Below the pieces are notes generated by a model. It saw only the letters and a program-made list of their open reading frames with translations, searched no databases and was not told where the DNA came from. The translations under genes and the position numbers were made by a program. From assembly GCA_018401955.1 (NCBI GenBank), contig JAGYJT010000012.1, positions 10,303-74,302 of the forward strand: DNA of 64,000 bases, written 5' to 3'. Within the stretch, counting starts at the first letter, position 1. The number at the start of each line of letters is the position of its first letter. This DNA comes from Chitinophagales bacterium (GTDB taxonomy: Bacteria; Bacteroidota; Bacteroidia; Chitinophagales; CAIOSU01). Shown in pieces: positions 7,396 to 35,441 of the stretch.

Positions 7396-8511
7396 TTATT
7401 TTCCTAACATTTGAGACAGCGCAAGGAGTCCTAGACCACCACCAGCAACTTGTGAAACCGTGCTTGGCTGTGCCTGATACAGTGTTGAAGACGACCCAGG
7501 TAGTCCACGGAGAAGCCCAGACATAAACTCAATCTGCTGATAAGGGTAGCGCTGTTGGTTAAGAAAGTCTTGGTACGCAATGTCTCGCGCTTGTTGCTCG
7601 CGTTCTTGTCCGAGGCGACCAAATTCTTCTTGGGACTTAAGCCGGTCAAGCGTTGTAGCCTGTTCCATGCTCCCCAACTGACCCAAGGTAGCGGCTGCTT
7701 GCGTCGCGGCCTGCGCCCCCTGAAGACCAAGGCTGGAACCAAACTGACGAGACTGCTCCCGCAGTCGCTGGGCTTCAAGTTGCTGTTGTTGCGTCTGTAG
7801 CCCAGCCTGTAGACCACGACCTTGCTCTGCTTCAAAAGCACGTTGCGCTGCATCAAAAGCCGACTGAGACCCGGTGCCTTGAATATTAGAAAGCCGGTCA
7901 AGTAGACCGCGCTCACGTTCTGCTGTAGCTAAAGCCTGACGGGCACCACCATAAGTGCCCTGACGAGCCGAACCAAGCCTAGCTTGTTGATCTGCGATCT
8001 GTGCTTCTCTTACGGCGGCTTGTTTCTGAACGTCTACAACCTGCTGCATATAGGGCGACATGTACATGTTAGCTGCGCCGGGAGCAACAAAAGACCCCAT
8101 TCCACTTGTAATTTGACCGGGCGTAAACTGACCGGGGCCGTACTGCCCTGCTCGAAGCGCTTGTTGTCCGCCTGCTGTTGCAAGCCCTGTTGCCGGGGCA
8201 AATTGTTGGGGGCCACCATAAGCAGACATACCGGCTCGTGCTGCTTGTTGTTCACCAGTAATCCCGGCTAAGCGCTCCCCGCCGTACGTTTGATAGGGTG
8301 TGCCTTCACCAGCTTCAGGACCAATACCTGTAAGCGCACCTGCCTGCCCCGCCATCGACTCCGCATAAGGCTGCAGGTACTCAGGAATACTAATCTGGCT
8401 AGTTTGGGTAGGTTGCCCCCCACCTCCACCGCCTTCAAGCGTCATACCATAACGACCGTTCCGGGGTTGGAAAGCCTTTTCTGGCAGCATTGAAAAATGG
8501 TCGTATCTCAT
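7396..8511 (-). CDS. Gly/Gln-rich internal virion protein (hypothetical, 371 aa)
   Basis: Intact ORF with G/Q/A-rich low-complexity sequence plus a YMSPYMQQVVDVQKQ segment. C-terminal hydrophobic tail GGGLGLLALSQMLGK. Composition resembles podovirus core/ejection proteins (from memory). Confidence 0.5.
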   Translation of the reverse strand: MRYDHFSMLPEKAFQPRNGRYGMTLEGGGGGGQPTQTSQISIPEYLQPYAESMAGQAGALTGIGPEAGEGTPYQTYGGERLAGITGEQQAARAGMSAYGGPQQFAPATGLATAGGQQALRAGQYGPGQFTPGQITSGMGSFVAPGAANMYMSPYMQQVVDVQKQAAVREAQIADQQARLGSARQGTYGGARQALATAERERGLLDRLSNIQGTGSQSAFDAAQRAFEAEQGRGLQAGLQTQQQQLEAQRLREQSRQFGSSLGLQGAQAATQAAATLGQLGSMEQATTLDRLKSQEEFGRLGQEREQQARDIAYQDFLNQQRYPYQQIEFMSGLLRGLPGSSSTLYQAQPSTVSQVAGGGLGLLALSQMLGK

Positions 8512-22660: not shown

Positions 22661-23380
22661 TTACATCACCGGGATCTTAATTTGACCATTACGATAAGCG
22701 TCGCCTCTTTCCATCCCATCACCAAGGCGTTTAGCTAACATCATTGCTTCATCGTAACGCTTCTGATACCCAGCAATGACATCAGGCTCGCCCTTCATAT
22801 AGGTGTAAGCCTCTAAGAGCGAACCGTATAGCAAGACGCTGTCAAAGTTATCTGCAAGCCAAGTCGTTGATGCAGTGACAATAGACTCAGGGTAGTAATA
22901 GTAGTGAAGTTCAATATTGTATGCAGCATCTGGTGTTGGACCAAGAATAAAGCTGTATTCATTTGTAATCACAGCAGGAACAGTGTTTGTCGTTGTTGGT
23001 CCAAAAATAGCGTAGTACTGAGGTTTGCCTGTAGCAGTAGGGCTTGGAAAAGATTGCCGTATAAAGTTGACATCTTTGTTGAGCAAAAACTCATACTCGC
23101 CGGTTACTAAATCAATAACCGCCATTGAATAAACAGCAAGGAAGTCAGACGGACTAGAGAGGTACTTATTGTTAGGTGTGACTGGGCCAGTGACGTTATT
23201 ACGAATAGCTGGGAACTGAACCGAGTTATAAATCCTTTGTTCAGCCTGTTGGATAAACGTATCGATCTGTTCTTTTGACGTAAATGTAACGTTTGCAGCG
23301 GTGGGATCACCGAACTGCGTGTTTGGGAAATCGTTTTCGCAATATCCCTTGATCGTCTCAAACAGAGTCGTATAGTTCAT
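22661..23380 (-). CDS. Neck/adaptor-region structural protein (239 aa)
   Basis: Intact ORF, similar in size to and adjacent to the 238-aa adaptor-like gene. No catalytic motif seen. Confidence 0.35.
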   Translation of the reverse strand: MNYTTLFETIKGYCENDFPNTQFGDPTAANVTFTSKEQIDTFIQQAEQRIYNSVQFPAIRNNVTGPVTPNNKYLSSPSDFLAVYSMAVIDLVTGEYEFLLNKDVNFIRQSFPSPTATGKPQYYAIFGPTTTNTVPAVITNEYSFILGPTPDAAYNIELHYYYYPESIVTASTTWLADNFDSVLLYGSLLEAYTYMKGEPDVIAGYQKRYDEAMMLAKRLGDGMERGDAYRNGQIKIPVM

Positions 23381-23523
23381 TTATCCAAGCTTCTTAGAAG
23401 AGTTTGTGCCCTTCGTTGCTGCGCCCGTACCACGAGTCTTAACAGTCTGCGTATTGGGAACATTATTAGGGTATCCACTAGTGTGAGGGACCGGCACGGG
23501 AGTTGGTTGGTTATGCGAAGACA

Positions 23524-23688
23524 TTATCGACCCCTTCCAGAAGAGCGCTGGTTCATAACCTTAGCCATGCCTCGACCGTACTTCTTCATGTCAAGGTTGG
23601 TTTTGCCACCTTTTTTTAAACCTTTGTGTGCTTTGCTTGCAGGTTTGTCTGCATGCTCTTTAAGCATTTCTTTCAATTTCTTTTCCAT
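23524..23688 (-). CDS. Small basic protein (54 aa; MEKKLKEMLKEHADKPASKAHKGLKKGGKTNLDMKKYGRGMAKVMNQRSSGRGR)
   Basis: Below the 60-aa track cut-off; found by hand. AGGAG box 6 nt upstream, and its TAA overlaps the next ATG (TAATG). A further 47-codon ORF (MSSHNQPTPVPVPH..., ~23381-23524) follows. Confidence 0.45.
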   Translation of the reverse strand: MEKKLKEMLKEHADKPASKAHKGLKKGGKTNLDMKKYGRGMAKVMNQRSSGRGR

Positions 23689-23697
23689 CTCAATCTC

Positions 23698-24090
23698 CTA
23701 AGTTACTGATACCGTTACCGTTCCAAGTGTTATACCCAACGCCAAGTTGTTTGGTGTAAGACTATCTGCATTAGCTCTGGCGCCGCCTACAGGAGCAAAG
23801 CCCCATTGAAAAATTCTACTGCCGCCCGACTCTGTTCCATCGGGGCCAAGTCCAGATGTGATGTAGCTGTTTGCATCTGGTCGTGGGTTTCTTACTGCTT
23901 GCGGGTCTTCCACCGGATACATGCCCAACTGCAACTGCGGCTGATCGGGTTCCCAACACTCCGGGCATACTAGAATATTAACGTTTTTTGTCTTAATAAT
24001 CAGCCTTTTTAGTTCTTTTAGGTCGTACCGAAAGTTGCAGCGGTCACACTGCGCAATCGCATACTTACCCGAAGAAAACCGATTACTCAC
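23698..24090 (-). CDS. Zinc-ribbon virion protein (130 aa)
   Basis: CDRC...(24 aa)...CPEC four-Cys ribbon near the N-terminus. Overlaps the upstream gene by 4 nt. Confidence 0.5.
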   Translation of the reverse strand: MSNRFSSGKYAIAQCDRCNFRYDLKELKRLIIKTKNVNILVCPECWEPDQPQLQLGMYPVEDPQAVRNPRPDANSYITSGLGPDGTESGGSRIFQWGFAPVGGARANADSLTPNNLALGITLGTVTVSVT

Positions 24091-24803
24091 GATATAAACA
24101 TCCTGCGCGGTACCAGACGATCAGGCGCTTTCTCACGGTCTTCCCCAGCCGCCAAGTCCCACGCCTCGTCATACATCTGTTTTAAAATAACCAGTCGTTC
24201 AGTCGCATCAGGAAGCTTTAAAGCTAAGTAGTACGACAGCCCTGCCACAAGACAAGGAAGAAAACGAAACGGGATGTCCTGGGTAGCAGTACCACCGCCA
24301 GCATCTTGAATACGGCGCATGCGCCAGTAAACGAACGTATACGCTTGGGAGCCATCAGGAGCAGGCCAAACATTGATTTGGGGTGCGTTCACCCCAGTAG
24401 GCTCTGTCGCCCCAGACTGCCTGTTAACCCAGACTTGAATGGGCCGTCCTTGTTGAATCTTGTTAGGGATCGTGGCGTAGGTAGAAACACTAATACGAGA
24501 GATTGTTAGGTCTGCCTGCGTTGCCGCACTACCCGCGCCCGTGCGAATAACATGTTCTAAAAGGTCTACGGTGTCAACCGGAAGGTCATAAGAAACCTGC
24601 CCCTGCACTAAAGGGAGAGAACCTTGCTCGATTGTCCAGAGGTTAATGCCTCGGTTGGCCCAGTCTGCAAACAAAAGGTTTAGGGAGCGCCTTGCTGTAC
24701 GAAAGTCGTAACCCGTGCGTAATTCTGCACCGCAGCGCTCAAAAGCCTCTTCGAGAATATCGTTGAGGTCTAAATTAAATGATGCGGTGCCAGAGGTTGT
24801 CAT
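24087..24803 (-). CDS. Putative head-tail adaptor/connector protein (238 aa)
   Basis: ARRSLNLLFADWANRGINLWTIEQGSLPLVQGQVSYDLP resembles the conserved N-region of podovirus adaptor proteins (from memory). Position is downstream of the head genes. Confidence 0.4.
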   Translation of the reverse strand: MTTSGTASFNLDLNDILEEAFERCGAELRTGYDFRTARRSLNLLFADWANRGINLWTIEQGSLPLVQGQVSYDLPVDTVDLLEHVIRTGAGSAATQADLTISRISVSTYATIPNKIQQGRPIQVWVNRQSGATEPTGVNAPQINVWPAPDGSQAYTFVYWRMRRIQDAGGGTATQDIPFRFLPCLVAGLSYYLALKLPDATERLVILKQMYDEAWDLAAGEDREKAPDRLVPRRMFIS

Positions 24804-24807
24804 ACTT

Positions 24808-25008
24808 TTAGCCCGTCGCCTTTAAATTTGCAGTCGTAATAAATTTTACCAATTTGCCGTATTCATTCATAATTTTTACAATTAAATCACTTTTGTGCTC
24901 AGTATAGGCTTCGCACTCATTTTTTGTCACAAAATTTGTCTGATCGTCAAACACGATGCCCGTGCAACCTTGCGTTAAGGTACAGAGAACAAATTCAGCT
25001 ATCCACAT
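24808..25008 (-). CDS. Small hypothetical protein (66 aa from MWIAEF)
   Basis: GGGGAGAGAG box upstream of ATG 25008. A second hand-found 49-codon ORF (MEISTHLITGMMVGIELVPGD..., 24992-25141) lies just upstream. Confidence 0.3.
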   Translation of the reverse strand: MWIAEFVLCTLTQGCTGIVFDDQTNFVTKNECEAYTEHKSDLIVKIMNEYGKLVKFITTANLKATG

Positions 25009-25155
25009 TGCTCTCTCCCCAATGAAACATGATTCGCACAATAAACAGGTCAATAACAAAACAATGTTGCCAATCACTATCTCCAGGGACAAGCTCAATC
25101 CCCACCATCATGCCAGTAATCAGGTGAGTGCTTATTTCCATTATTTTCTTTTCCA

Positions 25156-25359
25156 CTACAACTTTTCCGCCGCTTTGTATGCGGCGAGTAACGCTTTAAG
25201 CTCCGCAATTTCTGCGTCTCTTTCTGCTAGTTTTTTTAAGTAACTTTCATTCATGTCAACCCAAATCTTCATGCCATTCATGCGCTCTTTATGGTCGTCT
25301 GCCATCATTTGAAACAAACGCTCTGAAGCCTCGATCTGCTTTTGAATAAAGTCAATCAT
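25156..25359 (-). CDS. Small coiled-coil protein (67 aa from MIDFIQKQ)
   Basis: ATG 25359 overlaps the upstream TGA (ATGA). The upstream extension of the track ORF overlaps the preceding gene and is unlikely to be coding. Confidence 0.4.
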   Translation of the reverse strand: MIDFIQKQIEASERLFQMMADDHKERMNGMKIWVDMNESYLKKLAERDAEIAELKALLAAYKAAEKL

Positions 25360-25631
25360 TTCTTTTTCATGCCTTTTAGTGTTTGTGCAAGTCGGGCACG
25401 TTGGCCCATCTTTCCGGGGGCTTTGGCGGCTTTGGCTAATTTGGCGGCGGGGATTTTTTCGCCTTTTTTCACACCAAGCGATTTTCGTAAAGAGCCGGGT
25501 TTTTTGATGGCTGACTGAATCCATTTTGAAGTTGCGCCGCCCTTTTTCATAAAGCCCATTTTGTTACGGACATCTGTTGGAAGTTTTGCCAGACCCGGAT
25601 TTTCTTCTTTGTCTACAGGTTTAAGTGCCAT
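25356..25631 (-). CDS. Small Lys-rich basic protein (91 aa)
   Basis: MALKPVDKEENPGLAKLPTDVRNKMGFMKKGGATSKWIQSAIKKPGSLRKSLG...; TAATG overlap with the upstream gene. Confidence 0.5.
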   Translation of the reverse strand: MALKPVDKEENPGLAKLPTDVRNKMGFMKKGGATSKWIQSAIKKPGSLRKSLGVKKGEKIPAAKLAKAAKAPGKMGQRARLAQTLKGMKKK

Positions 25632-25882
25632 TATCGAAACCCCGCTGTCTTTCTAGCAATGCTCTTTGGTTGTTTAACAAACTGCTTACCCTTAGCTTTA
25701 CCTGCCCGTTTGGCCCTTGAAGTAGCTGCATACTCGGCGGGAGATAATGACTTAATGGCTGATTCTGGTAAATAGCGCTCACCAGTGGCCTTTGCCCCCT
25801 GAGTAGAAGGCTTTCCACTCTTAGTCCTCCATTTTTGCTGAGTCCAAGATTTCAGACTCTGCTGCGGCTTTTTCAATGGCAT
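25631..25882 (-). CDS. Small Lys-rich basic protein (83 aa) with W..QKWRTKSGK...GERYLP motif
   Basis: SLKSWTQQKWRTKSGKPSTQGAKATGERYLPESAIKSLSPAEYAATSRAKR resembles a small conserved phage/marine DUF family (name not certain). Confidence 0.5.
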   Translation of the reverse strand: MPLKKPQQSLKSWTQQKWRTKSGKPSTQGAKATGERYLPESAIKSLSPAEYAATSRAKRAGKAKGKQFVKQPKSIARKTAGFR

Positions 25883-25977
25883 GGCGTTCTATCCTTCTAA
25901 GCTCTCTTAGCGTTTGCGTGGAGTACAAGACCCATTCAAATACGTTACCGTCTGTCTTCGGCTCGTACGTCGGCATC

Positions 25978-26259
25978 TTAATCACGGTATCCGCCGCCTG
26001 CTTTTTTGTATTGCTGGGCAAGCATTTGGGCTTTTCTGGCAGACCACTGTCCTGGGGCACCACCCTTACCACCCGCTTTAATTCTTTCAAATATCTGCTT
26101 TCGGAGGGAAGGCTTGGTGTAGTTGCCAGCTTCGTTAACACGTGACTTACCTCCGGCTTTAAAAACCGTTACCTCGTTTGGATCATCCTTACGGGTAATC
26201 GTACGAGCTTTAGGCATTTTGGATGGGCGCATGTCGCCCATCCCTCGGCTCGGCATCAT
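25978..26259 (-). CDS. Small basic protein (93 aa) with GAPGQWSARKAQ...YKKAGGGY motif
   Basis: The C-terminus KAGGKGGAPGQWSARKAQMLAQQYKKAGGGYRD matches a DUF-type motif I recall from phage/viral small proteins. A possible 51-codon ORF (25821-25976) follows. Confidence 0.5.
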   Translation of the reverse strand: MMPSRGMGDMRPSKMPKARTITRKDDPNEVTVFKAGGKSRVNEAGNYTKPSLRKQIFERIKAGGKGGAPGQWSARKAQMLAQQYKKAGGGYRD

Positions 26260-26261
26260 GC

Positions 26262-26495
26262 TTAGACCTTACCGCCGCTCTTCATCATTTTGGACATGCC
26301 ACCGCTTGCCATCATTTTGGCTTTACCAACGCCACCACCCGCCATCATCTTAGTCATACCGCCACCGTACAACATTTTCCCTTTGGTCTTGCCCTTTACG
26401 GCAATACCGTCAGCACGCTTAGAAGCGCTGCCCATAGAAGGCTTTGCTGTTTTAACGGTGCCCATTTTAGAAGCGCCCATTTTTGCTTTCATCAT
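26262..26495 (-). CDS. Met/Lys/Gly-rich small basic protein (77 aa)
   Basis: By my count 14 Met, 16 Lys and 17 Gly of 77 residues, with GGxxxKMM repeats. Contains SASKRADGIAVKGKTKGKM, shared with 27160-27423. Confidence 0.5.
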   Translation of the reverse strand: MMKAKMGASKMGTVKTAKPSMGSASKRADGIAVKGKTKGKMLYGGGMTKMMAGGGVGKAKMMASGGMSKMMKSGGKV

Positions 26496-26500
26496 CTCAG

Positions 26501-27160
26501 TTACTCCTTGTACAAGTTATTAAAAGTCACCTCAGGGTCCATGTACGAGTCATCTTGTTCCGCACATTGAATCCATTGGCTCGGTCTAAAATCAGGCGCT
26601 CCTTCTCCGGTCTGCCAATAAGCAGGACTGGTAACTCGCACTCGATTGTTGGGTAAAGCCACTACATTTCCTGTCCATTTGCCTGCATCAGTAAGAATTA
26701 ACACATGGCTCTGTTTATGCTGGGAGGGGTCTTCAGAGACATCGCTCTCGGCGTAGTCCACCGTAAACAAGTACCTTCCAGTATGAAACTCGTTATCAAT
26801 CTTGCACAACCAAGGCGAAGGCTGTGCCCTGGCGATCTTAACAATCCCGTGGTTGTACGAGCTACAGTCCCAAGGCTGAGCCAGATGGGTCTGCATACGC
26901 TCAGGCCACTCTTGAAGGGGGATGTCACCCACAAGTGCAGTGATCGGCATACGCGCCCACATAGCCCCGCCATGAGGGTTAGGCTCTCCTTCAGCCTCAC
27001 AACCCGTGAAGATGATCTGAAAGCTAAGGCATCGGTCAGGTATTGTCGTGACAGCAACTGCCAAGCCGTGTATGTACTCTCCGTGGTAGTTGCTGTGCGC
27101 ATTAGTAAATTCTTTCCTGACCCAACACTTGAAATACGGAATGTTGCTTGTTAGGTACAT
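26501..27160 (-). CDS. Hypothetical protein (219 aa), Trp/His/Cys-containing globular
   Basis: Longest ORF at this locus; two overlapping alternative-frame ORFs are shorter. No motif recognised. Embedded among the basic small proteins. Confidence 0.45.
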   Translation of the reverse strand: MYLTSNIPYFKCWVRKEFTNAHSNYHGEYIHGLAVAVTTIPDRCLSFQIIFTGCEAEGEPNPHGGAMWARMPITALVGDIPLQEWPERMQTHLAQPWDCSSYNHGIVKIARAQPSPWLCKIDNEFHTGRYLFTVDYAESDVSEDPSQHKQSHVLILTDAGKWTGNVVALPNNRVRVTSPAYWQTGEGAPDFRPSQWIQCAEQDDSYMDPEVTFNNLYKE

Positions 27161-27423
27161 CAGATCATCTTTCCTCGGGTTTTGCCTTTCATGGCAATAC
27201 CATCCGCCCGTTTAGAGGCGGAAGACTTAATTGAACCACCCTTCTTCTTTCCAATTGCAGTTTTTTTTAGCTTTCTTTGGGCTGCTCGTTCTTTTGCACG
27301 TTTAGCAAAATCATCCATATCTTTCTCAACTTCAGATTGAGGAGTGTCCATTTTTTTAGCTGCCGCTTCGTACTGCTCTTTAGTAACAGGGCGACCTAAA
27401 ATTTCGTATACCTCTTTAGCCAT
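27160..27423 (-). CDS. Small basic protein (87 aa) with C-terminal SASKRADGIAMKGKTRGKMI
   Basis: Acidic/helical N-half and Lys-rich C-half. The C-terminal 19 aa are nearly identical to an internal segment of 26262-26495. Confidence 0.5.
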   Translation of the reverse strand: MAKEVYEILGRPVTKEQYEAAAKKMDTPQSEVEKDMDDFAKRAKERAAQRKLKKTAIGKKKGGSIKSSASKRADGIAMKGKTRGKMI

Positions 27424-27425
27424 GG

Positions 27426-27668
27426 TTATTTACCTGTTAAATAATGTAGTAGAAACCCTAATGTGCCACTTACTGCGGCGGCTAGTCCTGCGACAGCCAT
27501 CATTGTTTTCCAGCCGCCTTTGGCTTCTGAAAGGGTGCGGTTTATCTCTGCCAGAGAGCGCTTGATCTCATCAATATCCTTCATCATCCGGTCCATGTCG
27601 TCCTGGATGTGCTTGATTTCAACGCCGTGTTCGGCTAGTTCACGTTCGACGCTCATCAGCACTTCCAC
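27426..27668 (-). CDS. XhlA-like coiled-coil protein with C-terminal TM (80 aa)
   Basis: VERELAEHGVEIKHIQDDMDRMMKDIDEIKRSLAEINRTL followed by the TM segment WKTMMAVAGLAAAVSGTLGFLLHYL. This architecture matches XhlA-type phage membrane proteins. Confidence 0.4.
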   Translation of the reverse strand: MEVLMSVERELAEHGVEIKHIQDDMDRMMKDIDEIKRSLAEINRTLSEAKGGWKTMMAVAGLAAAVSGTLGFLLHYLTGK

Positions 27669-27949
27669 CTTTTTAATGATTGGTTAATTCGGCTGTTGGG
27701 GTCTTTGCGTGTCTCGGGCTTAGCTAACTTCTTCATGCCTTTCATTCGAGCACAAAACGATTTACGCCGCGCTGCGCGCTTGCCTGTAGGGCTATCTTCT
27801 GTAACGGCAGTCTTAAGCTTAGAGCCAGGGTTGGCCTTACGGTAGGCTTTTACACCTTTCTCCGTCATGCCAGCACCCTGTTTTGTTTGTCGGAAGTTAC
27901 CGCTTTTTACCGACGTTTTAATACCCATGCCCTTAGCCATGCTAGCCAC
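27656..27949 (-). CDS. Small basic protein (97 aa), GLT..G.KAYRKANPGSKLK...RRKSFCARMKGM motif
   Basis: MTEKGVKAYRKANPGSKLKTAVTEDSPTGKRAARRKSFCARMKGM resembles a small phage DUF family (recalled as DUF6321-like; unverified). Confidence 0.5.
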   Translation of the reverse strand: MASMAKGMGIKTSVKSGNFRQTKQGAGMTEKGVKAYRKANPGSKLKTAVTEDSPTGKRAARRKSFCARMKGMKKLAKPETRKDPNSRINQSLKRWKC

Positions 27950-29395: not shown

Positions 29396-29428
29396 AAAAC
29401 AAAAAAGGGGGCTTGTCGCCCCCTTTTT
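29396..29428 (-). terminator. Rho-independent terminator downstream of the major capsid gene
   Basis: On the minus strand: GGGGGC-GACAA-GCCCCC followed by TTTTTTGTTTT. Begins 9 nt after the capsid stop. Confidence 0.8.
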
Positions 29429-29436
29429 CTTGCTAC

Positions 29437-30348
29437 TTAAGCTGCGCCAGGAGATCCGAAGATACCTCTTGCATCGCTGAAGCCAAACGAATACCTCTCG
29501 CGCGCCTTGTACCTAACGTTCCCGGTGTCAAAATCACCATCCATGGAGTTCTGCAGCGGCGTACGAATAAAGTGCTTCATGCCGTTAGGAACGTCCGTGG
29601 TAAGGAACCAAGCATCGGTGTCGGTTAAGTAGTGGTTAATGGTGTAACCCTCGGGAATCGAGCCGTTATTCTTCAACGCATTGATGTCGTTGTCAGCCGT
29701 AGCCACGCGGAGTTCAGTATCCAAGAGGCGTGTTGCAACGAACTGCAATGCAGGGGGAATAACGAGCTTGCGGGGGCGAGCTGCGATTAACAGGCCACGC
29801 TCATCTGTCCATGCAGCGATCTGAATAACAGCGGCTTCAAGAGAAGTCTCATTCAGGTCAGCAGGAGTAGTGGGGACGTTGCTGTTAACACCACCCGAAA
29901 CCAAGGGGTGCGAAGCGGAAAACAAAGGCACTCCATCGCCACCGGGGAAATTGGTGTCGAAGCCATTGTTAAGAACCGCAGCAGCCTTAGTCTGCTTGGT
30001 GTAAGCCATAGCACGAGCGAGAGCCTTGGTGTATCGGCTGGAGAGCGAGTCATAGAGGTTGTCCTCAATTGCCTCTTCCGTCAGCGAGAAACCAAGAGCG
30101 ATTGTCTCGTGTGTATAGCGGGCTGTGAAAGTTTCCTGTGCGTTGTCATAGGCGATGGCAGAACCCTCGTTTTTGACAGGAGCGGCGGAGAAACCAGACA
30201 GCTTGGTTTCTTCTTCGAACGAACGCTCGGAAGTTTCGGTTTCAAAAATCTCCTTATGCTCTTCGCCGTAACGAGCATACTCAAGACCAAACAAAGCATT
30301 AAGTCCTGGGAGCAGTTCTTTAAGTAGTTGTGCGCGTGAAATAGCCAT
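29437..30348 (-). CDS. Major capsid protein (303 aa)
   Basis: AAGGAG box and position after the scaffold. ...ETSERSFEEETKLSGFSAAPVKNEGSAIAYDNAQETFTARYTHETIALGFSLTEEAIEDNLY resembles capsid-family N-regions I recall. Followed by a strong terminator. Confidence 0.7.
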   Translation of the reverse strand: MAISRAQLLKELLPGLNALFGLEYARYGEEHKEIFETETSERSFEEETKLSGFSAAPVKNEGSAIAYDNAQETFTARYTHETIALGFSLTEEAIEDNLYDSLSSRYTKALARAMAYTKQTKAAAVLNNGFDTNFPGGDGVPLFSASHPLVSGGVNSNVPTTPADLNETSLEAAVIQIAAWTDERGLLIAARPRKLVIPPALQFVATRLLDTELRVATADNDINALKNNGSIPEGYTINHYLTDTDAWFLTTDVPNGMKHFIRTPLQNSMDGDFDTGNVRYKARERYSFGFSDARGIFGSPGAA

Positions 30349-31475: not shown

Positions 31476-32420
31476 TTAGGACTCCGATGTAAGTTTAAGG
31501 ACTTCTCTAGCGTACTGCTCATTGGTCAAGTTAAATTTTCTTGCCAGGGCTTCCTGGGTTTTAGTTAATTTAACTTTTGTTTTTCCATTGGCAGATCGTG
31601 TTACAGCGGCTACTACGTTAGCCGGACGTTTACTCGGTTGTTCCTTCTTTGTCTCTCCAAAATAGTCGGGAAACACCTCACGCATGCGAGCGTCTACTCG
31701 CTCGTAATATTCAGCCGATCCCGCAGGAACTCCGGCATTGACCAGTTTTTTGTGCACAGCGTAAGCAAGATTGGTCATTTCATCATCTGCCCCAAACCAA
31801 GAGTTCTTGGTTTGCCACTGAACATCGCGTTCAGTAGGCTGCGGAACCGATTGCTGCTGCGTAGGTTGAATATATACATCATCTTCTTTGGATTGTAAAG
31901 CGGGGGGCTGATAATTTTTTGCAGCTTCAGAACGATATTTAGCTGCCGCAAATTCTTCTTGGGCGTCAATAATCGCATCCGTGTCATAGCTCTCCTGCGC
32001 TGATTTTAATTTCTGCCGAGCCATTTGAAGCTCCATATCCGCCTTGGACTGGAGAACTTCCCCGTAATGAGTGGCCCCTTTACTGAACTGGTCACGCAGT
32101 TTTTTGTTTTCTTCAAAAAGTTGTTGCGCAACCCGGACTGCTTCTTCCCGTTCACGTGCAGCCGCTTCTTTAGCCCGACGTTCATCATGACGAGCGTGCG
32201 TAAGCTCCTTCATCCGTTTCTGGACTTTTTCGCTGTACTCTGCGACCTCTTCATCCGTTGGGTCATTAACTTCACGGTCAAGAGGCTTACGCCCACGGTC
32301 TTGCTCTGGCGTATCGTCAACTACTTCTAGCTCAATATCGCTTTCGTCGGACTCCGTTTCAATTTCTAAATCCTTGTCTTCCACTTCTATTTCATCAGGA
32401 AACTTGTAGTTCTCTGCCAT
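31476..32420 (-). CDS. Scaffolding protein (314 aa)
   Basis: Very acidic N-terminus (EIEVEDKDLEIETESDESDIELEVVDD), charged coiled-coil centre. Position is between the portal and capsid genes. Confidence 0.55.
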   Translation of the reverse strand: MAENYKFPDEIEVEDKDLEIETESDESDIELEVVDDTPEQDRGRKPLDREVNDPTDEEVAEYSEKVQKRMKELTHARHDERRAKEAAAREREEAVRVAQQLFEENKKLRDQFSKGATHYGEVLQSKADMELQMARQKLKSAQESYDTDAIIDAQEEFAAAKYRSEAAKNYQPPALQSKEDDVYIQPTQQQSVPQPTERDVQWQTKNSWFGADDEMTNLAYAVHKKLVNAGVPAGSAEYYERVDARMREVFPDYFGETKKEQPSKRPANVVAAVTRSANGKTKVKLTKTQEALARKFNLTNEQYAREVLKLTSES

Positions 32421-32789: not shown

Positions 32790-32976
32790 CTATTTCCTCA
32801 GCTTTCTGTGCAAGGTCAAGTAAGTAAGCCTCTGCCATTGCCAGACCTTGAATGACACCGCAGAGTTTTTGATACTGCTCAAAATTTTGACAAGCGCCGC
32901 CTGCAATATCGTCGGCGTAGTTATTCAAATCTTCTCGTATTTTTTTGCGTAGAACCTCTACGAAGTTTTCAATCAC
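32782..32976 (-). CDS. Small hypothetical protein (64 aa)
   Basis: Intact ORF overlapping both neighbours by a few nt; helical, acidic C-terminus. Confidence 0.35.
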   Translation of the reverse strand: MIENFVEVLRKKIREDLNNYADDIAGGACQNFEQYQKLCGVIQGLAMAEAYLLDLAQKAEEIDD

Positions 32977-35441
32977 CGGGTTTTACCTCCTCGTTGTCTG
33001 GATTCCCCAACAGATATGCCGAGTTTCATTCCCTCAAGCTGCTGCTTAATCTTCAGTTCGTCGGCGTCTTTTGCTGCTTTTACTAACAATTCTTGCTCTC
33101 GTAACTTCAATTCGTCAGCTTTTGCTGCCGCATCCACCGCCAGTTCCTTCTCTTTTATAGCGAGTTCAGCCTGTTTAATCTGAATGTCGAGTTGGTCTTT
33201 CTGCGTTTTGCGCTGCTGCTCGGCCTGCTTGAGCATGAGTTCTTGCTGCTGCATCTGTACGATGGGGTCTTGCGCTTGTTGCTGCGCCTGCTTCTGGGCA
33301 ACTTCGGATTGGCTATTTGCCAATACCCGCTTACTTGCTTCTGCTGCCAGACGCGAAACCTGAATTTCAAGCTCCTCGGGCATCTCTGTATCGGGTGCAG
33401 GTAACGGCATCCCAAGCTGCTCTTCAAGCCTACGGCGGTAGGCAAACCCAACGTGCTCAGCGATATGCGCCTGCATCGCCGCCACAAGCTGGTTGGCTCT
33501 TGGATTTTGCCCAATAAGCTGCGTAACAAGTGGATCCTGCATTGCGTTCATGTGTACCTGAATATGTGCCTCATGGTCTTGATAAATAAAGGCTTTTACG
33601 GGCTTGCCCTTGAGCACATCCATGTTCTCAGACACGGGGTCCACCGGCTTCTCATCATCCTCTGTAGGTATAAGCTTGGCGGCGTTCTTAATGCCAAGGG
33701 TTTCAAGCATTTGCCTGTGAAGCTGTGGGAGGTTGTAAATCTGAGGCGCCGTCTGGGAAAGCTGGATAACTGCCTGATACTGCACAATCCTCTGAGACAT
33801 CGTTGCCGCATTGGGGTCCGAGACAGGAATAACCTCCACCATGTCGTAGTCGGCCTGTTTGGCCCGCCTTGACCCCTCAATCGGATCGTAGTCGTAATCA
33901 TCGTCGGTGTAATCCCTAATGATTGCAGACAAAAGCTTTAACTCATGTTTAAAGGCGTAGTGCACCCGAGCTTGAACCGCAGACATCACCTTGAGCATGC
34001 GCTCCAACAACGCCAGCGTTGTACCCACAGGGGCCTGTGCCGACATGTCCGAAATCTTCATGTCTGATGTTGCGGCAAAACGACGCCCTTCTTCAACAAT
34101 CGTCCCTAACAACTGGTACAGCGTCGCACTGGGTTCTTTATAGGGTAGTGGCAGAATGTTATCCCGCAGAGCGCCAGAGCCAATGTCCACATCTCTAAAC
34201 TCCCCCGGTGCAATCGGTGTGTCGTCCCCCTTGATGCGTAGTCCTCTGGATTTCAGTCCCCCCGGCAGGTTGGATAACGTACCGGCATCCACAAGCTGCC
34301 TCATGATCGACGTTGCCGACTTGGCAAACCCACCAATTAGGTGAAACAGCCCGAAGCCGTAGAACCCAAAGCCAGGGATGTAAACGTAGTGCACGAAATG
34401 GTCGCGTCTTTTTTGCGTTACATCGTCTTCGTAATAGTTACGCCTAACTGCCAGTACTTCACCTGTGCCCTCTACCACTGTGACCACGTATGGTATGGCA
34501 ATGCCTGTAGGCTCCCCGTCTTCTAGGTCTTCATAGCCCGGTAGGTCAAGGTTGACGTGTACTTCATACAACACATAGCGGTCGTCATTAATTGACGACA
34601 TTCCGCTTTCTTTGTCCTTTTTCTCCTGCAACTCATTTTTTAGCCTGGAGGGCTCACCCAGTTCAATATCACGGTAAAAGCCTGCTACCTGAAGCTTGCG
34701 TATCTCATTGCTGGTTTTGTACATACGATGTGTTACACGCTCAGCACTCTCCAACCCCACCGCGCCGTAGGACACGATAATGTCTTCTGCTGGAACGAAA
34801 ACCGATGTCTGGCGCTGGAGGTTGGGGTCGAAGTAGACTTTCTTAAATGCGGAACCAGTGGCTGGCAAGTTCCACAACATCCTTTCGTGCTCCATGCGGA
34901 ACTCAGGCATGCGCTCGGTCAACTCGTAGTTCATGTCCTCCTTGACTCGGGCTGCAGCGTCTTCTTTCTCGCGTGTGTCTTTACCAATAATTTTTGTACG
35001 TACAGGCCCTTGAGCAGGAAATGTCTCCATGATTGTTTCGGACTGAAAACGAACGACCGCTTCTGTAATCATGGGGTGGAACACACCACAGGCGCCGTCC
35101 CACGGCTCAGTACGCTCTTCGTATTTCAAGCCAAGCAGCACAAGCCCTTCTTTATACGATTTCTCCCAGTCTTTTCGGGAATCAAGGTCGTCTTTAATAT
35201 TTTGTAAAAGCTCGTTACCAAGGCTCTGCAGTTCAGCTTCGTCTATTTCTTCTGCAAGGTTGGCATAAAAATCAGGCCCGCCTTCGCCTTCGGTAATTTC
35301 AAGAATTTCTTCCCCACCCACGCTAACGCGTACAGCTTCTGGGTCCTCAATCTCAATTTCAAGATCCGGTTCACCCATCAGCGCTTGAGCGTCTTCCTCA
35401 ATGCCTTGGGGTGCTTGGTACAGTGCTTTATCAATAGCCAT
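32973..35441 (-). CDS. Portal protein (822 aa) with long Q/K/E coiled-coil C-terminal extension
   Basis: Largest head-module ORF, one gene downstream of the terminase, with AAGAGG box. C-terminal ~150 aa are Q/E/K-rich (QKQAQQQAQDPIVQMQQQELMLKQAEQQRK...). Confidence 0.7.
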   Translation of the reverse strand: MAIDKALYQAPQGIEEDAQALMGEPDLEIEIEDPEAVRVSVGGEEILEITEGEGGPDFYANLAEEIDEAELQSLGNELLQNIKDDLDSRKDWEKSYKEGLVLLGLKYEERTEPWDGACGVFHPMITEAVVRFQSETIMETFPAQGPVRTKIIGKDTREKEDAAARVKEDMNYELTERMPEFRMEHERMLWNLPATGSAFKKVYFDPNLQRQTSVFVPAEDIIVSYGAVGLESAERVTHRMYKTSNEIRKLQVAGFYRDIELGEPSRLKNELQEKKDKESGMSSINDDRYVLYEVHVNLDLPGYEDLEDGEPTGIAIPYVVTVVEGTGEVLAVRRNYYEDDVTQKRRDHFVHYVYIPGFGFYGFGLFHLIGGFAKSATSIMRQLVDAGTLSNLPGGLKSRGLRIKGDDTPIAPGEFRDVDIGSGALRDNILPLPYKEPSATLYQLLGTIVEEGRRFAATSDMKISDMSAQAPVGTTLALLERMLKVMSAVQARVHYAFKHELKLLSAIIRDYTDDDYDYDPIEGSRRAKQADYDMVEVIPVSDPNAATMSQRIVQYQAVIQLSQTAPQIYNLPQLHRQMLETLGIKNAAKLIPTEDDEKPVDPVSENMDVLKGKPVKAFIYQDHEAHIQVHMNAMQDPLVTQLIGQNPRANQLVAAMQAHIAEHVGFAYRRRLEEQLGMPLPAPDTEMPEELEIQVSRLAAEASKRVLANSQSEVAQKQAQQQAQDPIVQMQQQELMLKQAEQQRKTQKDQLDIQIKQAELAIKEKELAVDAAAKADELKLREQELLVKAAKDADELKIKQQLEGMKLGISVGESRQRGGKTR

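What the first reader, a model, noticed from the sequence alone, without database searches (positions are those of the whole stretch)
23381..27949. Set of at least 7 tiny, extremely basic Lys/Gly/Ala/Met-rich proteins interleaved in the head-neck module
Seven small ORFs of 54-97 aa are strongly Lys-rich and partly low-complexity. They are 23524-23688, 25356-25631, 25631-25882, 25978-26259, 26262-26495, 27160-27423 and 27656-27949.
- Several are chained by TAATG/ATGA overlaps, implying coupled, stoichiometric translation.
- Two share the near-identical segment SASKRADGIA(V/M)KGKT(K/R)GKM.
- One is 14 Met, 16 Lys and 17 Gly of 77 residues, with GGxxxKMM repeats.
- Others carry compact conserved motifs: W..QKWRTKSGK...GERYLP, GAPGQWSARKAQ...YKKAGGGY, and KAYRKANPGSKLK...RRKSFCARMKGM.

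Their number, charge and placement among virion genes suggest packaged DNA-condensing/histone-like or co-injected proteins rather than random small ORFs. As far as I know, the function of such families is not established.
Basis: partly seen in the sequence, partly recalled or inferred. Interest (0 to 1): 0.65.

Follow-up and report, generated by a model that had tools for sequence, protein, structure and literature searches.

The report
Conserved suite of tiny polycationic phage proteins
An uncultured aquatic podophage carries, among its head and neck genes, about eight real, strongly conserved genes for tiny, very basic, disordered proteins built from shuffled modules; their job is unknown, and the best guess is that they are packaged with the DNA inside the head.

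Summary
All seven ORFs exist on the minus strand, with pI 10.1-11.3 and net charge +12 to +22, between acidic virion genes. They lie between a Mu-gpT-like capsid gene and two SU10-type adaptor genes. An eighth small ORF (23381-23524) belongs to the set.

They are real genes. Each recurs in 50-60 of 82 related loci. dN/dS is 0.04-0.24, with one short low-divergence pair at 0.45 and one 37%-identity pair at 0.61; adaptor and capsid give 0.04-0.12. B97, B83 and the RADG module each have thousands of metagenomic relatives.

They are modular. Relatives carry B93n+B91c or B93c+B83 fusions. A tag, ...SASKRADG[CI]AxKGKTKG[RK][FM]V, ends exactly 4 residues before the C-terminus on very diverse disordered proteins. 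A hydrophobic-K-K-G-G motif is about tenfold enriched.

One module is Pfam DUF6321. It also forms the C-terminus of cyanomyophage protein T4-GC119, which mass spectrometry found in S-SM1 virions but not in Syn9.

Function is not established. My best guess (0.4) is late-made internal head proteins that bind DNA or the capsid interior. Varying gene context in other phages and site-specific conservation argue for caution.

The parts
27656..27940 (-). B97: 94-aa DUF6321 protein, net about +22. The mechanical ORF extends to a GTG at 27949.
   Evidence: Pfam PF19846 hit at E=2.4e-16, 60.6 bits against a cutoff of 28.5. At least 7972 metagenomic homologues, almost all stand-alone and 93-97 aa. 46 invariant columns among 32 homologues. 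AF2 mean pLDDT 68.9; residues 50-94 form three helices at pLDDT 80-87 and the N-terminus is disordered.
27426..27668 (-). Interleaved non-basic gene encoding an N-terminal coiled coil and a C-terminal transmembrane helix. The likely start is the ATG at 27656, which overlaps the B97 stop as TGATG.
   Evidence: Translation and junction. Weak PHROG hits to a haemolysin/XhlA-like family, E=2e-5. DSL-LC04 has a small ORF at the same relative position (2219-2467, right after its DUF6321 gene) that encodes a hydrophobic N-terminal stretch followed by a coiled coil; tblastn found no match to TM80 in that locus. HMO-2011 gp60 has the same coiled-coil plus C-terminal TM layout.
27160..27423 (-). B87: a variable, partly acidic N-terminal part, then KKKGGS, then the C-terminal RADG tag (SASKRADGIAMKGKTRGKMI-COOH).
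   Evidence: In relatives the tag ends exactly 4 residues before the C-terminus in 51 of 72 strict instances, on N-terminal parts of 57-452 aa. The RADG profile finds 5820 metagenomic proteins.
26501..27160 (-). Interleaved 219-aa acidic accessory gene. It is not part of the basic set.
   Evidence: phrog_3704 ('ferredoxin', moron category), E=5e-31. Present in only 4 of 82 related loci.
26262..26495 (-). B77: an internal RADG motif followed by (A/S)GGM(S/T)KMM repeats. Composition is K16, G17 and M14 of 77 residues.
   Evidence: Relatives carry 1-2 further repeat blocks. dN/dS is 0.10-0.16 against L054 and L032.
25978..26259 (-). B93: two modules. B93n is MMPSRGMG..PSKMPKA..RKDDP..V; B93c is NEAGNYTKP.LRK..F.RIKAG.KGGAPGQWSARKAQ..A..YKKAGGGY.
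   Evidence: phrog_17747, E=4e-32. B93n occurs in 63 loci and B93c in 52. In relatives B93n is fused to B91c (34 cases) and B93c is fused to B83 (28 cases). HMO-2011 gp63 and a 60-aa HTVC034P protein carry B93c.
25631..25882 (-). B83: W..QKWRTKSGKPSTQG.KATGERYLP..AIK.LS..EYAA..RAKR.GKA.GKQFV.QP, net +18.
   Evidence: phrog_14910, E=1e-35. At least 8000 metagenomic homologues with no Pfam domain. 47 invariant columns among 24 homologues. Present in roseophages, pelagiphages, OM43 phages and HMO-2011 gp59. In GTDB genomes it occurs only on MAG contigs.
25356..25631 (-). B91: an N-terminal part, then MKKGG, then the B91c module (KWIQ.AIKKPG.L+K.LG...GEKIP..KL.KA.K.PGK.GQRARLA.TLKGM).
   Evidence: 1668 clusters at 50% identity with E<=1e-3. 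The module lies C-terminal, N-terminal or internal in proteins of 58-602 aa. The long carriers have no Pfam domain and are low-complexity proteins with repeated KKGG and PAKAP motifs.
23524..23688 (-). B54: 54 aa, net +12, with H..KP..KAHKGLKKGG. It is encoded after the Zn-ribbon gene that follows the first adaptor.
   Evidence: The B54-type module gives 85 hits in 68 loci and is often fused to the RADG tag. dN/dS is 0.07-0.09.
23381..23524 (-). s47: the eighth member, 47 aa, pI 10.6, ending ...TQTVKTRGTGAATKGTNSSKKLG. It is coupled to B54 by a TAATG overlap.
   Evidence: Family found in 70 loci. dN/dS is 0.05-0.28. It lies on the disordered side of the charge-hydropathy plot.
29401..29429 (-). 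Strong intrinsic terminator directly after the capsid gene. It marks the start of the lower-expression unit that holds the cement-like gene, the small genes and the adaptors.
   Evidence: 12-bp stem with 6 GC pairs and a T-run. No comparable site on the minus strand down to 23381.
29437..30348 (-). Major capsid protein (context).
   Evidence: PF25209 Phage_capsid_4, E=2.4e-16, and Mu-like gpT. 66% identical to the DSL-LC04 MCP.
24087..24803 (-). First SU10-type adaptor (context). The small-gene block ends here.
   Evidence: PF24175, E=1e-9. At least 600 related loci in IMG/VR.
22661..23380 (-). Second SU10-type adaptor paralogue (context). B54 and s47 sit just upstream of it.
   Evidence: PF24175, E=1.2e-21.

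Best explanation
The region encodes a conserved, modular suite of about eight late-expressed, intrinsically disordered polycationic proteins.

Shown:
- They are genuine genes under purifying selection.
- They lie in one terminator-free stretch (same strand, coupled junctions) with head-decoration and neck genes, downstream of the capsid-gene terminator.
- They are assembled from a small repertoire of shuffled modules: DUF6321, B93n, B93c, B83, B91c, a B54-type H-K-H/KKGG module, GG..KMM repeats, and a C-terminal RADG tag.
- The same modules travel together in unrelated aquatic phages.

Inferred, and my commitment:
- The proteins are incorporated into the procapsid and stay inside the head with the DNA. 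They act as internal head proteins that neutralise and organise DNA and/or bridge it to the acidic capsid interior, and may leave with the DNA on infection.
- The shared terminal modules act as incorporation or anchoring tags. These are the RADG peptide ending 4 residues before the C-terminus and the N-terminal MxPSRGMG module.
- The repeated hydrophobic-K-K-G-G motif acts as a multivalent contact motif.
For: (1) Real genes. Each ORF occurs in 50-60 of 82 loci fetched through the adaptor gene, always between the capsid gene and the second adaptor. dN is 0.04-0.27 where dS is saturated. dN/dS is 0.04-0.24 wherever it could be computed, apart from two outliers: B83 vs L054, 0.45 at dS 0.10, and B77 vs L006, 0.61 at 37% identity. 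Adaptor, g130, g239 and MCP give 0.03-0.13.

(2) Physical chemistry typical of nucleic-acid binders. pI is 10-11.3 and net charge +12 to +22. All lie on the disordered side of the charge-hydropathy boundary. AF2 gives only short helices, with pLDDT 64-69.

(3) Late, virion-module expression. There is a strong terminator after the MCP, none before 23381, and translationally coupled junctions.

(4) Direct virion evidence for one module. T4-GC119 of S-SM1, whose C-terminal 63 residues are DUF6321 (iE 1e-27; Pfam), was found in purified virions with 13 peptide counts (PMC3037559, Table S8). In P-SCSP1q the DUF6321 gene lies between the MCP and tail tube A.

(5) Functional linkage by fusion. Architectures B93n+B91c (34), B93c+B83 (28) and B54+RADG occur in relatives. 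All seven window proteins join one single-linkage cluster of 411 ORFs in 81 loci.

(6) Suite behaviour. 24 complete loci carry 3-9 such ORFs (median 7), with summed net charge +54 to +209 (median +121). The window sums to +119. HTVC034P, an unrelated 35-kb pelagiphage, has DUF6321 (+25), B93c (+17) and B83 (+23) close together in one run of small genes, B93c and B83 being adjacent, with two further tiny basic ORFs (+14, +15) among them.

(7) Tag-like anatomy. The RADG motif ends exactly 4 residues from the C-terminus in 51 of 72 instances, on N-terminal parts of unrelated sequence, with 2-4 paralogues per genome. It also ends a 308-aa protein of the cultured phage Pag-Yong1.

(8) The hydrophobic-K-K-G-G motif occurs 10 times against 0.95 expected in the window set, and 494 against 56 across the family. 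Long relatives add PAKAP-type repeats like those of H1/AlgP-type DNA binders (that comparison is from my own knowledge).

(9) Restriction to phages. There is no copy in isolate genomes of 185,579 species; all hits are on MAG contigs. All 519 phage records with DUF6321 come from aquatic hosts.
Against: - No member of this window's own lineage has been examined by proteomics or cryo-EM.
- Syn9 gp114 (T4-GC119) was annotated but not detected in virions.
- In HMO-2011 the B83 and B93c genes lie among a monooxygenase gene, membrane proteins and the lysozyme, upstream of the terminase.
- In HTVC034P and Skadi the genes follow the M15 peptidase. In S-CRES1 they follow the lysozyme. In S-EIVl and Ma-LMM01 they sit near replication genes.
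- The interval is an insertion hot spot: the 219-aa accessory gene occurs in only 4 of 82 loci.
- Near-invariance of many uncharged residues fits a specific partner better than generic charge neutralisation.
- No prohead protease or known capsid-targeting signal was identified.
- One set supplies only about +120 charges against roughly 120,000 phosphates of a 60-kb genome. Bulk neutralisation would need on the order of a hundred or more copies of each protein (my arithmetic).
- No DNA-binding fold or family was recognised.
Confidence: 0.4

Rival explanations
1. The proteins are late intracellular nucleic-acid-binding accessory proteins that are not packaged. They would bind phage or host DNA or RNA, or the ribosome, during late infection. 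Possible roles are compacting or protecting replicated DNA before packaging, displacing host nucleoid proteins, or tuning translation, in the way phage-encoded bS21 is thought to work.
For: - The composition and disorder also fit ribosomal-protein-like or nucleoid-associated binders.
- Site-specific conservation suggests a defined macromolecular partner.
- The genomic context varies outside this lineage, including replication neighbourhoods in S-EIVl and Ma-LMM01.
- Syn9 gp114 is absent from the virion proteome.
- The modules occur in the hyperplastic gp16-gp17 region of cyanomyophages, together with metabolic genes.
Against: - S-SM1 GC119 was detected in virions.
- The placement is stable between capsid and adaptor in hundreds of loci, and between MCP and tail tube in P-SCSP1q.
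- There is no hit to any ribosomal-protein, HU/IHF or other nucleoid family in Pfam or NCBIfam.
- The tag-like terminal modules are not explained.
Confidence: 0.25
2. The proteins are assembly or structural glue rather than DNA binders. They would bind acidic virion components and act as assembly chaperones or internal cement. Candidate partners are the capsid interior, the portal barrel, and the hyper-acidic N-terminus of the putative scaffold at 31476-32420.
For: - Neighbouring virion proteins are strongly acidic: MCP is net -13, and the putative scaffold starts with about 40 residues rich in D and E.
- Specific residue conservation and terminal tags fit protein-protein docking.
- The position between cement-like and adaptor genes also fits.
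Against: - The same modules occur in myophages, T7-like podophages and pelagiphages with unrelated capsid, scaffold and neck proteins.
- No solved phage particle in the PDB contains a recognisable homologue.
Confidence: 0.12
3. The proteins are lysis-associated cationic peptides, like the disruptin gp28 of phage phiKT, that permeabilise the outer membrane at the end of infection.
For: - The modules lie next to an endolysin and small membrane proteins in HMO-2011, HTVC034P, Skadi and S-CRES1.
- A coiled-coil plus TM protein is interleaved in the window.
- There is precedent for a cationic lysis peptide in a spanin-less podophage (bioRxiv 10.1101/515445).
Against: - Hydrophobic content is 0.13-0.26, against 0.32-0.38 in reference antimicrobial peptides. 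The best hydrophobic-moment windows are broken by Pro or Gly.
- Seven to nine different proteins per genome is excessive for this role.
- DUF6321 is part of a 443-529-aa protein found in virions.
- In this window no endolysin is adjacent.
Confidence: 0.06
4. The genes are a mixed bag of mobile accessory genes (morons or anti-defence genes) that only share composition and have no common function.
For: - The interval accepts insertions: the 219-aa accessory gene, the 68-aa coiled-coil ORF and the 96-aa ORF are each present in 1-5 of 82 loci.
- Gene order among the small genes is shuffled between relatives.
Against: - Inter-module fusions occur.
- The KKGG motif and the RADG tag are shared across members.
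- DUF6321, B93c and B83 recur together in an unrelated phage.
- The number of genes and the total charge per genome are conserved.
- Conservation is far higher than is usual for anti-defence genes.
Confidence: 0.1

Closest known systems
T4-GC119 'structural protein' of T4-like cyanomyophages (S-SM1 SSM1_115, Syn9 gp114, S-E7 AYR02000)
   Same: - The C-terminal 60-70 residues are the same DUF6321 domain as window protein B97.
- The whole protein is Lys-rich and multi-modular.
- It was detected in purified S-SM1 virions.
- Two further GC119 segments resemble B83 (the W..W..C..PKC segment) and B93c (the WPSAYASG..K..GA.NW segment). hhalign gives P=0.0013 and P=0.005, against 0.16-0.54 for non-cognate pairs.
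   Different: - It is one fused 443-529-aa protein in the gp16-gp17 hyperplastic region, whereas here the modules are separate 54-94-aa genes between capsid and adaptor.
- The extra-module similarities are only suggestive (hhalign probability 7-18%).
- It was not detected in Syn9 virions.
- Its function is equally unknown.
Internal head proteins IPI, IPII and IPIII of phage T4 (established knowledge, not tested here)
   Same: They are small, basic proteins made late, packed in the head with the DNA in hundreds of copies and ejected with it. They are incorporated through a short terminal targeting peptide. This is the functional model I propose.
   Different: - There is no sequence or profile similarity.
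- T4 uses an N-terminal targeting sequence removed by the prohead protease; no protease or cleavage motif was found here.
- Here there are about eight families, strong disorder and module shuffling.
Protein counter-ions of other viruses: adenovirus core proteins VII, V and mu; fusellovirus VP2 (established knowledge)
   Same: They are tiny, Arg/Lys-rich, largely disordered proteins that condense the packaged genome.
   Different: - The lineages are unrelated.
- The only sequence hint is a sub-threshold hit of B91 residues 36-52 to Fusello_VP2_Capsid (E=0.031, 15 bits against a cutoff of 27), which I do not accept as homology.
Cargo-loading peptides of encapsulins and the C-terminal coat-binding helix of P22-type scaffolding proteins (established knowledge)
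   Same: A short conserved terminal peptide on otherwise unrelated proteins directs them to the interior of an HK97-fold shell. The RADG tag has this anatomy: it ends 4 residues from the C-terminus, sits on diverse bodies, and has several paralogues next to the capsid gene.
   Different: There is no sequence similarity, and binding to the capsid protein was not tested.
Disruptin gp28 of phage phiKT (bioRxiv 10.1101/515445)
   Same: It is a small cationic phage protein, and in some carriers the modules lie beside lysis genes.
   Different: The window proteins are less hydrophobic and less amphipathic, have many paralogues, and share a module with a protein detected in virions.

Membership tests
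Pfam DUF6321 (PF19846) | Profile match above the curated gathering score | tested here: met
   B97 scores 60.6 bits against a cutoff of 28.5, E=2.4e-16, covering profile positions 5-72 of 72. All listed homologues carry PF19846.
PHROG 14910 and PHROG 17747 (unknown function) | Profile match over most of the family model | tested here: met
   B83 matches phrog_14910 at E=1e-35 over 1-79 of 80. B93 matches phrog_17747 at E=4e-32 over 5-63 of 63.
T4-GC119 cyanophage virion protein | Shared DUF6321 C-terminal domain | tested here: met
   My DUF6321 profile hits S-SM1 (iE 1e-27), S-E7 (1e-27) and Syn9 gp114 (1e-17) at their C-termini. Pfam agrees.
T4-GC119 cyanophage virion protein | The other window modules (B83, B93c) correspond to internal GC119 segments | tested here: inconclusive
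   hmmsearch finds nothing. hhalign gives P=0.0013 and P=0.005, at probability 18% and 7%; non-cognate controls give P=0.16-0.54.
T4-GC119 cyanophage virion protein | Presence in purified virions | not testable with these tools
   Published only for S-SM1 (detected) and Syn9 (not detected). Nothing is known for this lineage.
T4-type internal head proteins | Sequence or profile homology to IPI, IPII or IPIII | tested here: not met
   No Pfam, PHROG or NCBIfam hit to internal-protein families.
T4-type internal head proteins | Terminal capsid-targeting sequence processed by a prohead protease; packaged and ejected with the DNA | not testable with these tools
   Conserved terminal modules exist, but no protease gene was recognised between portal and capsid. 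Packaging needs an experiment.
Bacterial histone-like proteins (HU/IHF, H-NS) and eukaryote-type histones | Match to the DNA-binding fold or profile | tested here: not met
   No Pfam or NCBIfam match. Foldseek against the PDB gave no hit with E<1. The H-NS N-terminal domain appears only at E=8.4, probability 0.04.
Phage-encoded ribosomal proteins (bS21 and others) | Match to a ribosomal-protein profile | tested here: not met
   No such family at E<=1 in Pfam or NCBIfam for any of the proteins.
Disruptin / cationic lysis peptide | Amphipathic, membrane-active cationic helix encoded in a lysis cassette | tested here: inconclusive
   Maximum hydrophobic moment is 0.34-0.59, in windows interrupted by Pro or Gly. 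The hydrophobic fraction is 0.13-0.26, against 0.32-0.38 in reference peptides. The genes are next to lysis genes in some other phages but not here.
Fusellovirus VP2 | Pfam PF25632 above the gathering score | tested here: not met
   15.1 bits against a cutoff of 27, over 17 residues only.

The most novel reading that the evidence does not exclude
Aquatic tailed phages may carry a previously unrecognised class of 'phage protamines'. These would be families of multivalent, intrinsically disordered polycations loaded into HK97-fold capsids through short terminal tags: the C-terminal ...RADG[CI]AxKGKTKGxxV peptide and the N-terminal MxPSRGMG module. The loading would resemble encapsulin cargo loading. 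Repeated hydrophobic-K-K-G-G turns would then condense or pattern the packaged genome and enter the host with it. The modules would be shuffled and exchanged between podo- and myophages of cyanobacteria, SAR11, SAR116, OM43, roseobacters and freshwater hosts.
Probability: 0.15. Interest if true: 0.85.

Novelty: new variant of a known kind. Interest (0 to 1): 0.55.

Why it matters
These module families are among the commonest unannotated small proteins in aquatic viromes.
- Three searches were capped at 8000 scored candidates. They gave at least 7972 hits for B97, 8000 for B83 and 5820 for the RADG module.
- B91c has 1668 clusters at 50% identity.
- The modules occur in the phages that dominate the oceans and lakes: HMO-2011-type phages, pelagiphages, cyanophages and roseophages.

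If the proteins are packaged DNA- or capsid-binding polycations, three things follow.
- Tailed phages outside the T4 group would routinely use protein counter-ions.
- There would be a nitrogen-costly investment to explain in nutrient-poor waters.
- A portable capsid-targeting tag would become available.

Even if that guess is wrong, several results are concrete, testable handles on a large block of viral dark matter. These are the fusion patterns, the fixed-position C-terminal tag, the enriched KKGG motif, and the link to a protein detected in virions. The analysis also shows why standard tryptic virion proteomics would miss these proteins: each yields only 1-5 usable peptides.

Tried and rejected
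- PDB sequence searches found nothing relevant. I searched a concatenate of all nine small proteins and Syn9 gp114.
- AF2 models of B97 and B83 had only moderate confidence. Foldseek against the PDB gave no hit better than E=4.6.
- NCBIfam gave nothing. Pfam gave nothing for six of the seven.
- I first thought, by eye, that B93c equals the 'WPSAYASG' segment of Syn9 gp114 and that B83 equals its 'W..W..C..PKC' segment. hmmsearch did not support this, and hhalign gives only suggestive P-values. I report it as unproven.
- I looked for domain fusions that would reveal function. Stand-alone proteins dominate the DUF6321, B83 and RADG hit lists. Apparent long B83 proteins are mis-called starts. Long B91c carriers have no Pfam domain.
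- The search of 185,579 species genomes for a cellular homologue of B83 found only MAG contigs with scattered taxonomic labels, which are probably binned phage DNA. Two of these contigs are long and could be prophages (L115 on a 1.12-Mb record, L125 on a 390-kb contig); I did not check them.
- Literature searches gave no function or proteomics for this lineage. I searched for DUF6321, Syn9 gp114, HMO-2011 proteomics, DSL-LC04, Pag-Yong1 and Pam1. The P-SCSP1 paper has no virion mass spectrometry.
- The RADG motif fits the Walker-A regular expression GxxxxGKT. A P-loop NTPase cannot end 4 residues later, so I treat this as coincidence or, at most, a phosphate-contacting loop.
- The spurious-ORF explanation is rejected on conservation and dN/dS.

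Full report
**What is in the window**

The window is a phage genome fragment with its structural genes on the minus strand.
- The portal is at 32973-35441.
- A Mu-gpT/Phage_capsid_4 major capsid protein is at 29437-30348, and two SU10-type adaptor paralogues are at 24087-24803 and 22661-23380.
- The closest annotated records are the lake metagenome-assembled phage DSL-LC04 and seawater phage 023Pt_psg01. Weaker matches go to HMO-2011-type phages, pelagiphages and Planktothrix phages.
- DSL-LC04 has the same order: capsid, cement protein, six small 'hypothetical' genes, adaptor.

**Checking the observation**

All seven ORFs exist as described.
- Their pI is 10.1-11.3 and their net charge is +12 to +22. 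The larger neighbours have pI 4.0-5.5, except g130 (23698-24090) at pI 7.6.
- The composition quoted for the 77-aa protein (K16, G17, M14) is exact.
- The coupled junctions are real: TAATG at 25631 and 23524, TGATG at 27656 and 27160, and ATGA at 25361.
- All seven, plus a 47-aa ORF at 23381-23524, fall on the disordered side of the charge-hydropathy boundary. Every neighbour falls on the folded side.

There are three refinements.
- The '97-aa' protein most likely starts at the ATG at 27940 and is 94 aa long.
- The 47-aa ORF is an eighth member.
- Two non-basic genes are interleaved. One encodes a coiled-coil plus transmembrane protein. The other is a 219-aa gene of the PHROG 'ferredoxin/moron' family found in only 4 of 82 relatives.

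**Are they genes?**

The adaptor protein retrieved at least 600 related loci from IMG/VR, and 80 were kept.
- By tblastn, each basic ORF is present in 50-60 of the 82 loci held, always between the capsid gene and the second adaptor.
- In the closest pairs, synonymous sites are saturated while dN is 0.04-0.27.
- dN/dS is 0.04-0.24 where it could be computed. The exceptions are B83 vs L054 (0.45 at dS 0.10) and B77 vs L006 (0.61 at 37% identity). Adaptor, g130, g239 and capsid give 0.03-0.13.
- B97 and B83 each saturated the 8000-candidate limit of the metagenome protein search.
- Alignments show 46-47 invariant columns, including many uncharged residues.

The ORFs are therefore real, constrained genes.

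**Modularity**

- In an all-against-all comparison of ORFs from the capsid-adaptor interval, all seven window proteins fall into one single-linkage cluster of 411 ORFs in 81 loci.
- Iterated profiles for sub-segments explain why.
  - The N-terminal half of B93 (MxPSRGMG..PSKMPKAKTI.RKD.P..V.MY.KGG) is fused to the B93 C-module in 23 relatives and to the B91 C-module in 34.
  - The B93 C-module is fused to B83 in 28 relatives.
  - B83 stands alone in 29 relatives.
- The segment shared by the 87-aa and 77-aa proteins is a widespread motif. In strict form it is [AS][DNS]G[ICVLM][AVS].[KRQ]G[KRH]T[KRNA].
  - It ends exactly 4 residues before the C-terminus in 51 of 72 instances.
  - The typical context is ...AKGG.V.SASKRADG[CI]A.KGKTKG[RK][FM]V.
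  - It is attached to N-terminal parts of 57-452 aa that are unrelated to each other and of low complexity, with 2-4 paralogues per genome.
  - It also ends a 308-aa Pro/Ala/Arg-rich protein of the cultured Planktothrix phage Pag-Yong1.
  - Its profile finds 5820 metagenomic proteins, and the best hits are all 30-79 aa.
- A short motif, hydrophobic-(K/R/A)-(K/A/S/G)-G-G, occurs in five of the seven window proteins.
  - It occurs 10 times in the window set, against 0.95 expected from shuffles.
  - It occurs 494 times across the family, against 56 expected.
- Among 24 loci with a complete interval, there are 3-9 such ORFs (median 7). Their summed net charge is +54 to +209 (median +121). The window sums to +119.

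**Distribution beyond this lineage**

- B97 is Pfam DUF6321. tblastn finds it in 519 phage records. Every listed category is aquatic: Synechococcus and Prochlorococcus myo- and podophages, pelagiphages, Microcystis and Planktothrix phages.
- In T4-like cyanomyophages DUF6321 is the C-terminal domain of a 443-529-aa Lys-rich protein, T4-GC119, in the gp16-gp17 region.
- In the T7-like cyanopodophage P-SCSP1q it is an 84-aa gene between the capsid gene and tail tube A.
- The B93c and B83 modules occur in several cultured marine phages:
  - roseophages CRP-1, CRP-9, CRP-13, CRP-345 and CRP-603;
  - pelagiphages HTVC033P, 034P, 035P, 103P, 104P, 115P and Lederberg;
  - OM43 phages MEP401 and MEP402;
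  - HMO-2011, S-CRES1, S-CRES2 and S-EIVl.
- HTVC034P, an unrelated 35-kb pelagiphage, has DUF6321 (+25), a 60-aa B93c protein (+17) and an 82-aa B83 protein (+23) close together in one run of small genes. B93c and B83 are adjacent, and two more tiny basic ORFs lie among them. The suite therefore travels together.
- The B91 C-module forms 1668 clusters at 50% identity, in proteins of 58-602 aa. The long carriers have no Pfam domain. They are low-complexity proteins with many KKGG repeats and PAKAP-type repeats.
- In one genome per species of GTDB, B83 is found only on MAG contigs with scattered taxonomic labels, never in an isolate. This points to a phage-restricted family.

**Experimental evidence in the literature**

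- No paper in the searchable library mentions DUF6321.
- Table S8 of Sullivan et al. 2010 (PMC3037559) lists T4-GC119 as a structural protein. It was detected with 13 peptide counts in purified S-SM1 virions. It is absent from the S-PM2 genome. It is annotated but was not detected in Syn9.
- That is the only direct evidence that a member of this module set is virion-associated.
- Tryptic proteomics would be a poor test for the small proteins, because each yields only 1-5 peptides of 7-30 residues.

**Structure**

- AF2 on B97 gave mean pLDDT 68.9. The N-terminus is disordered, and residues 50-94 form a three-helix C-terminal part at pLDDT 80-87 that includes the two conserved cysteines.
- AF2 on B83 gave mean pLDDT 63.6, with helices at 40-63 and 73-78.
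- Neither model has a structural neighbour in the PDB.
- No PDB chain matches by sequence.

**Expression context**

- A strong intrinsic terminator follows the capsid gene at 29429-29401. No comparable site occurs on that strand down to 23381.
- The small genes are therefore probably read together with the cement-like, neck and adaptor genes, at a lower level than the capsid protein.

**Interpretation**

I commit to the following as most likely (0.4).
- The proteins are late internal head proteins: disordered polycations incorporated into the procapsid.
- They stay with the DNA, bind DNA and/or the acidic capsid interior, and may enter the host with it.
- The fixed-position RADG peptide and the B93 N-module serve as incorporation or anchoring tags.
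- KKGG serves as a multivalent contact motif.

The shown steps are gene reality, the terminator-free, co-directional arrangement with virion genes, charge and disorder, module fusion, suite co-occurrence, and virion detection of one fused homologue. The inferred steps are packaging in this lineage, DNA binding, and tag function.

Several points count against this reading.
- The genomic context varies in other phages. The modules lie next to lysozyme or M15 peptidase and membrane proteins in HMO-2011, HTVC034P, Skadi and S-CRES1. They lie near replication genes in S-EIVl and Ma-LMM01.
- The Syn9 proteomic result is negative.
- The interval is an insertion hot spot.
- The site-specific conservation suggests a defined partner rather than bulk neutralisation.

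**Rivals**

- Unpackaged late nucleic-acid or ribosome binders: 0.25.
- Assembly or capsid glue acting on acidic virion proteins, such as the hyper-acidic N-terminus of the putative scaffold: 0.12.
- A heterogeneous set of accessory genes: 0.10.
- Disruptin-like lysis peptides: 0.06. The hydrophobicity and amphipathicity comparison argues against this (precedent in bioRxiv 10.1101/515445).
- Spurious ORFs are excluded.

**Comparison with known systems and novelty**

- Functionally, the nearest models are T4 internal proteins and the core proteins of other viruses. Membership fails on homology and cannot be tested on packaging.
- By sequence, one protein is a bona fide DUF6321 member and two belong to PHROGs of unknown function.
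- The relation of B83 and B93c to internal segments of T4-GC119 is only suggestive. hhalign gives P=0.0013 and P=0.005, against 0.16-0.54 for controls.
- The families are catalogued but uncharacterised.
- As far as the searched literature shows, the following have not been described:
  - the suite behaviour;
  - the fusion network;
  - the C-terminal tag;
  - the KKGG motif;
  - the link to a virion-detected protein.
- I rate this a new variant of a known kind (virus-encoded basic genome- or capsid-associated proteins), of moderate interest.

Noticed in passing
window 26501-27160 (-): A 219-aa acidic gene matches phrog_3704 ('ferredoxin', moron/AMG category, E=5e-31). It is inserted in the middle of the basic-gene block and is present in only 4 of 82 related loci, so it is probably a recently acquired accessory gene.
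   Followed up: partly
window 27426-27668 (-): A protein of about 76-80 aa has an N-terminal coiled coil and a C-terminal transmembrane helix, with weak XhlA/haemolysin-like PHROG hits. DSL-LC04 has a small hydrophobic-stretch plus coiled-coil ORF at the same position, HMO-2011 gp60 has the same layout, and HTVC034P and Skadi have an N-terminal-TM plus coiled-coil ORF in the same gene run. This could be a lysis or assembly membrane factor.
   Followed up: partly
window 29401-29429 (-): A very strong intrinsic terminator (12-bp stem, T-run) lies immediately after the major capsid gene. This is the classic arrangement for over-expressing the capsid protein relative to downstream genes.
   Followed up: no
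window 31476-32420 (-): The putative scaffolding protein (314 aa, phrog_28737, annotated 'kinesin-like' in relatives) starts with about 40 residues that are almost all Asp and Glu. Near its C-terminus it has ...TRSANGKTKVKL..., faintly reminiscent of the RADG tag. It is a possible docking partner for the polycations.
   Followed up: no
window 23698-24090 (-): A 130-aa protein with a CxxC...CxxC zinc-ribbon-like N-terminus is conserved in all 82 related loci. It always sits directly downstream of the first of the two SU10-type adaptor paralogues, between the two; Pag-Yong1 has an equivalent after its single annotated adaptor.
   Followed up: no
window 25156-25524 (-): The mechanical 122-aa ORF overlaps B91 in another frame. 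The real gene is probably the 67-aa coiled-coil protein starting at the ATG at 25361 (ATGA overlap with the B91 stop). It is present in only 2-5 relatives.
   Followed up: partly
window 27163-27230 and 26373-26430 (-); related loci L003-L082: The RADG motif G[CI]AxKGKT fits the Walker-A pattern GxxxxGK[ST] although it lies 4 residues from the C-terminus. This is either coincidence or a minimal phosphate-contacting loop.
   Followed up: no
proteins P0405, P0475, P0374 (metagenomic): Disordered proteins of 300-600 aa carry the B91 C-module together with up to ten KKGG repeats, long PAKAP/AKPA repeats and Met/Pro-rich stretches. They look like giant versions of the window's small proteins.
   Followed up: partly
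window 38832-41021 (-) and 58465-61431 (+): The phage encodes an NAD-dependent DNA ligase (phrog_3869, E=2e-173) and a topoisomerase II-like protein of 988 aa (phrog_551, E=2e-82).
   Followed up: no
L115 (CP070693.1, Dehalococcoidia MAG chromosome) and L125 (390-kb contig): Two B83 homologues lie on long MAG contigs rather than on phage-sized ones, so they may be prophages of this phage group. I did not inspect the context.
   Followed up: no
L084:5496-5771 (Syn9 gp116): The small protein just downstream of Syn9 gp114 gives a sub-threshold hit to Pfam VP_N-CPKC ('Virion protein N terminal domain', E=9e-4). This is another small Cys-containing module in the same hyperplastic region.
   Followed up: no
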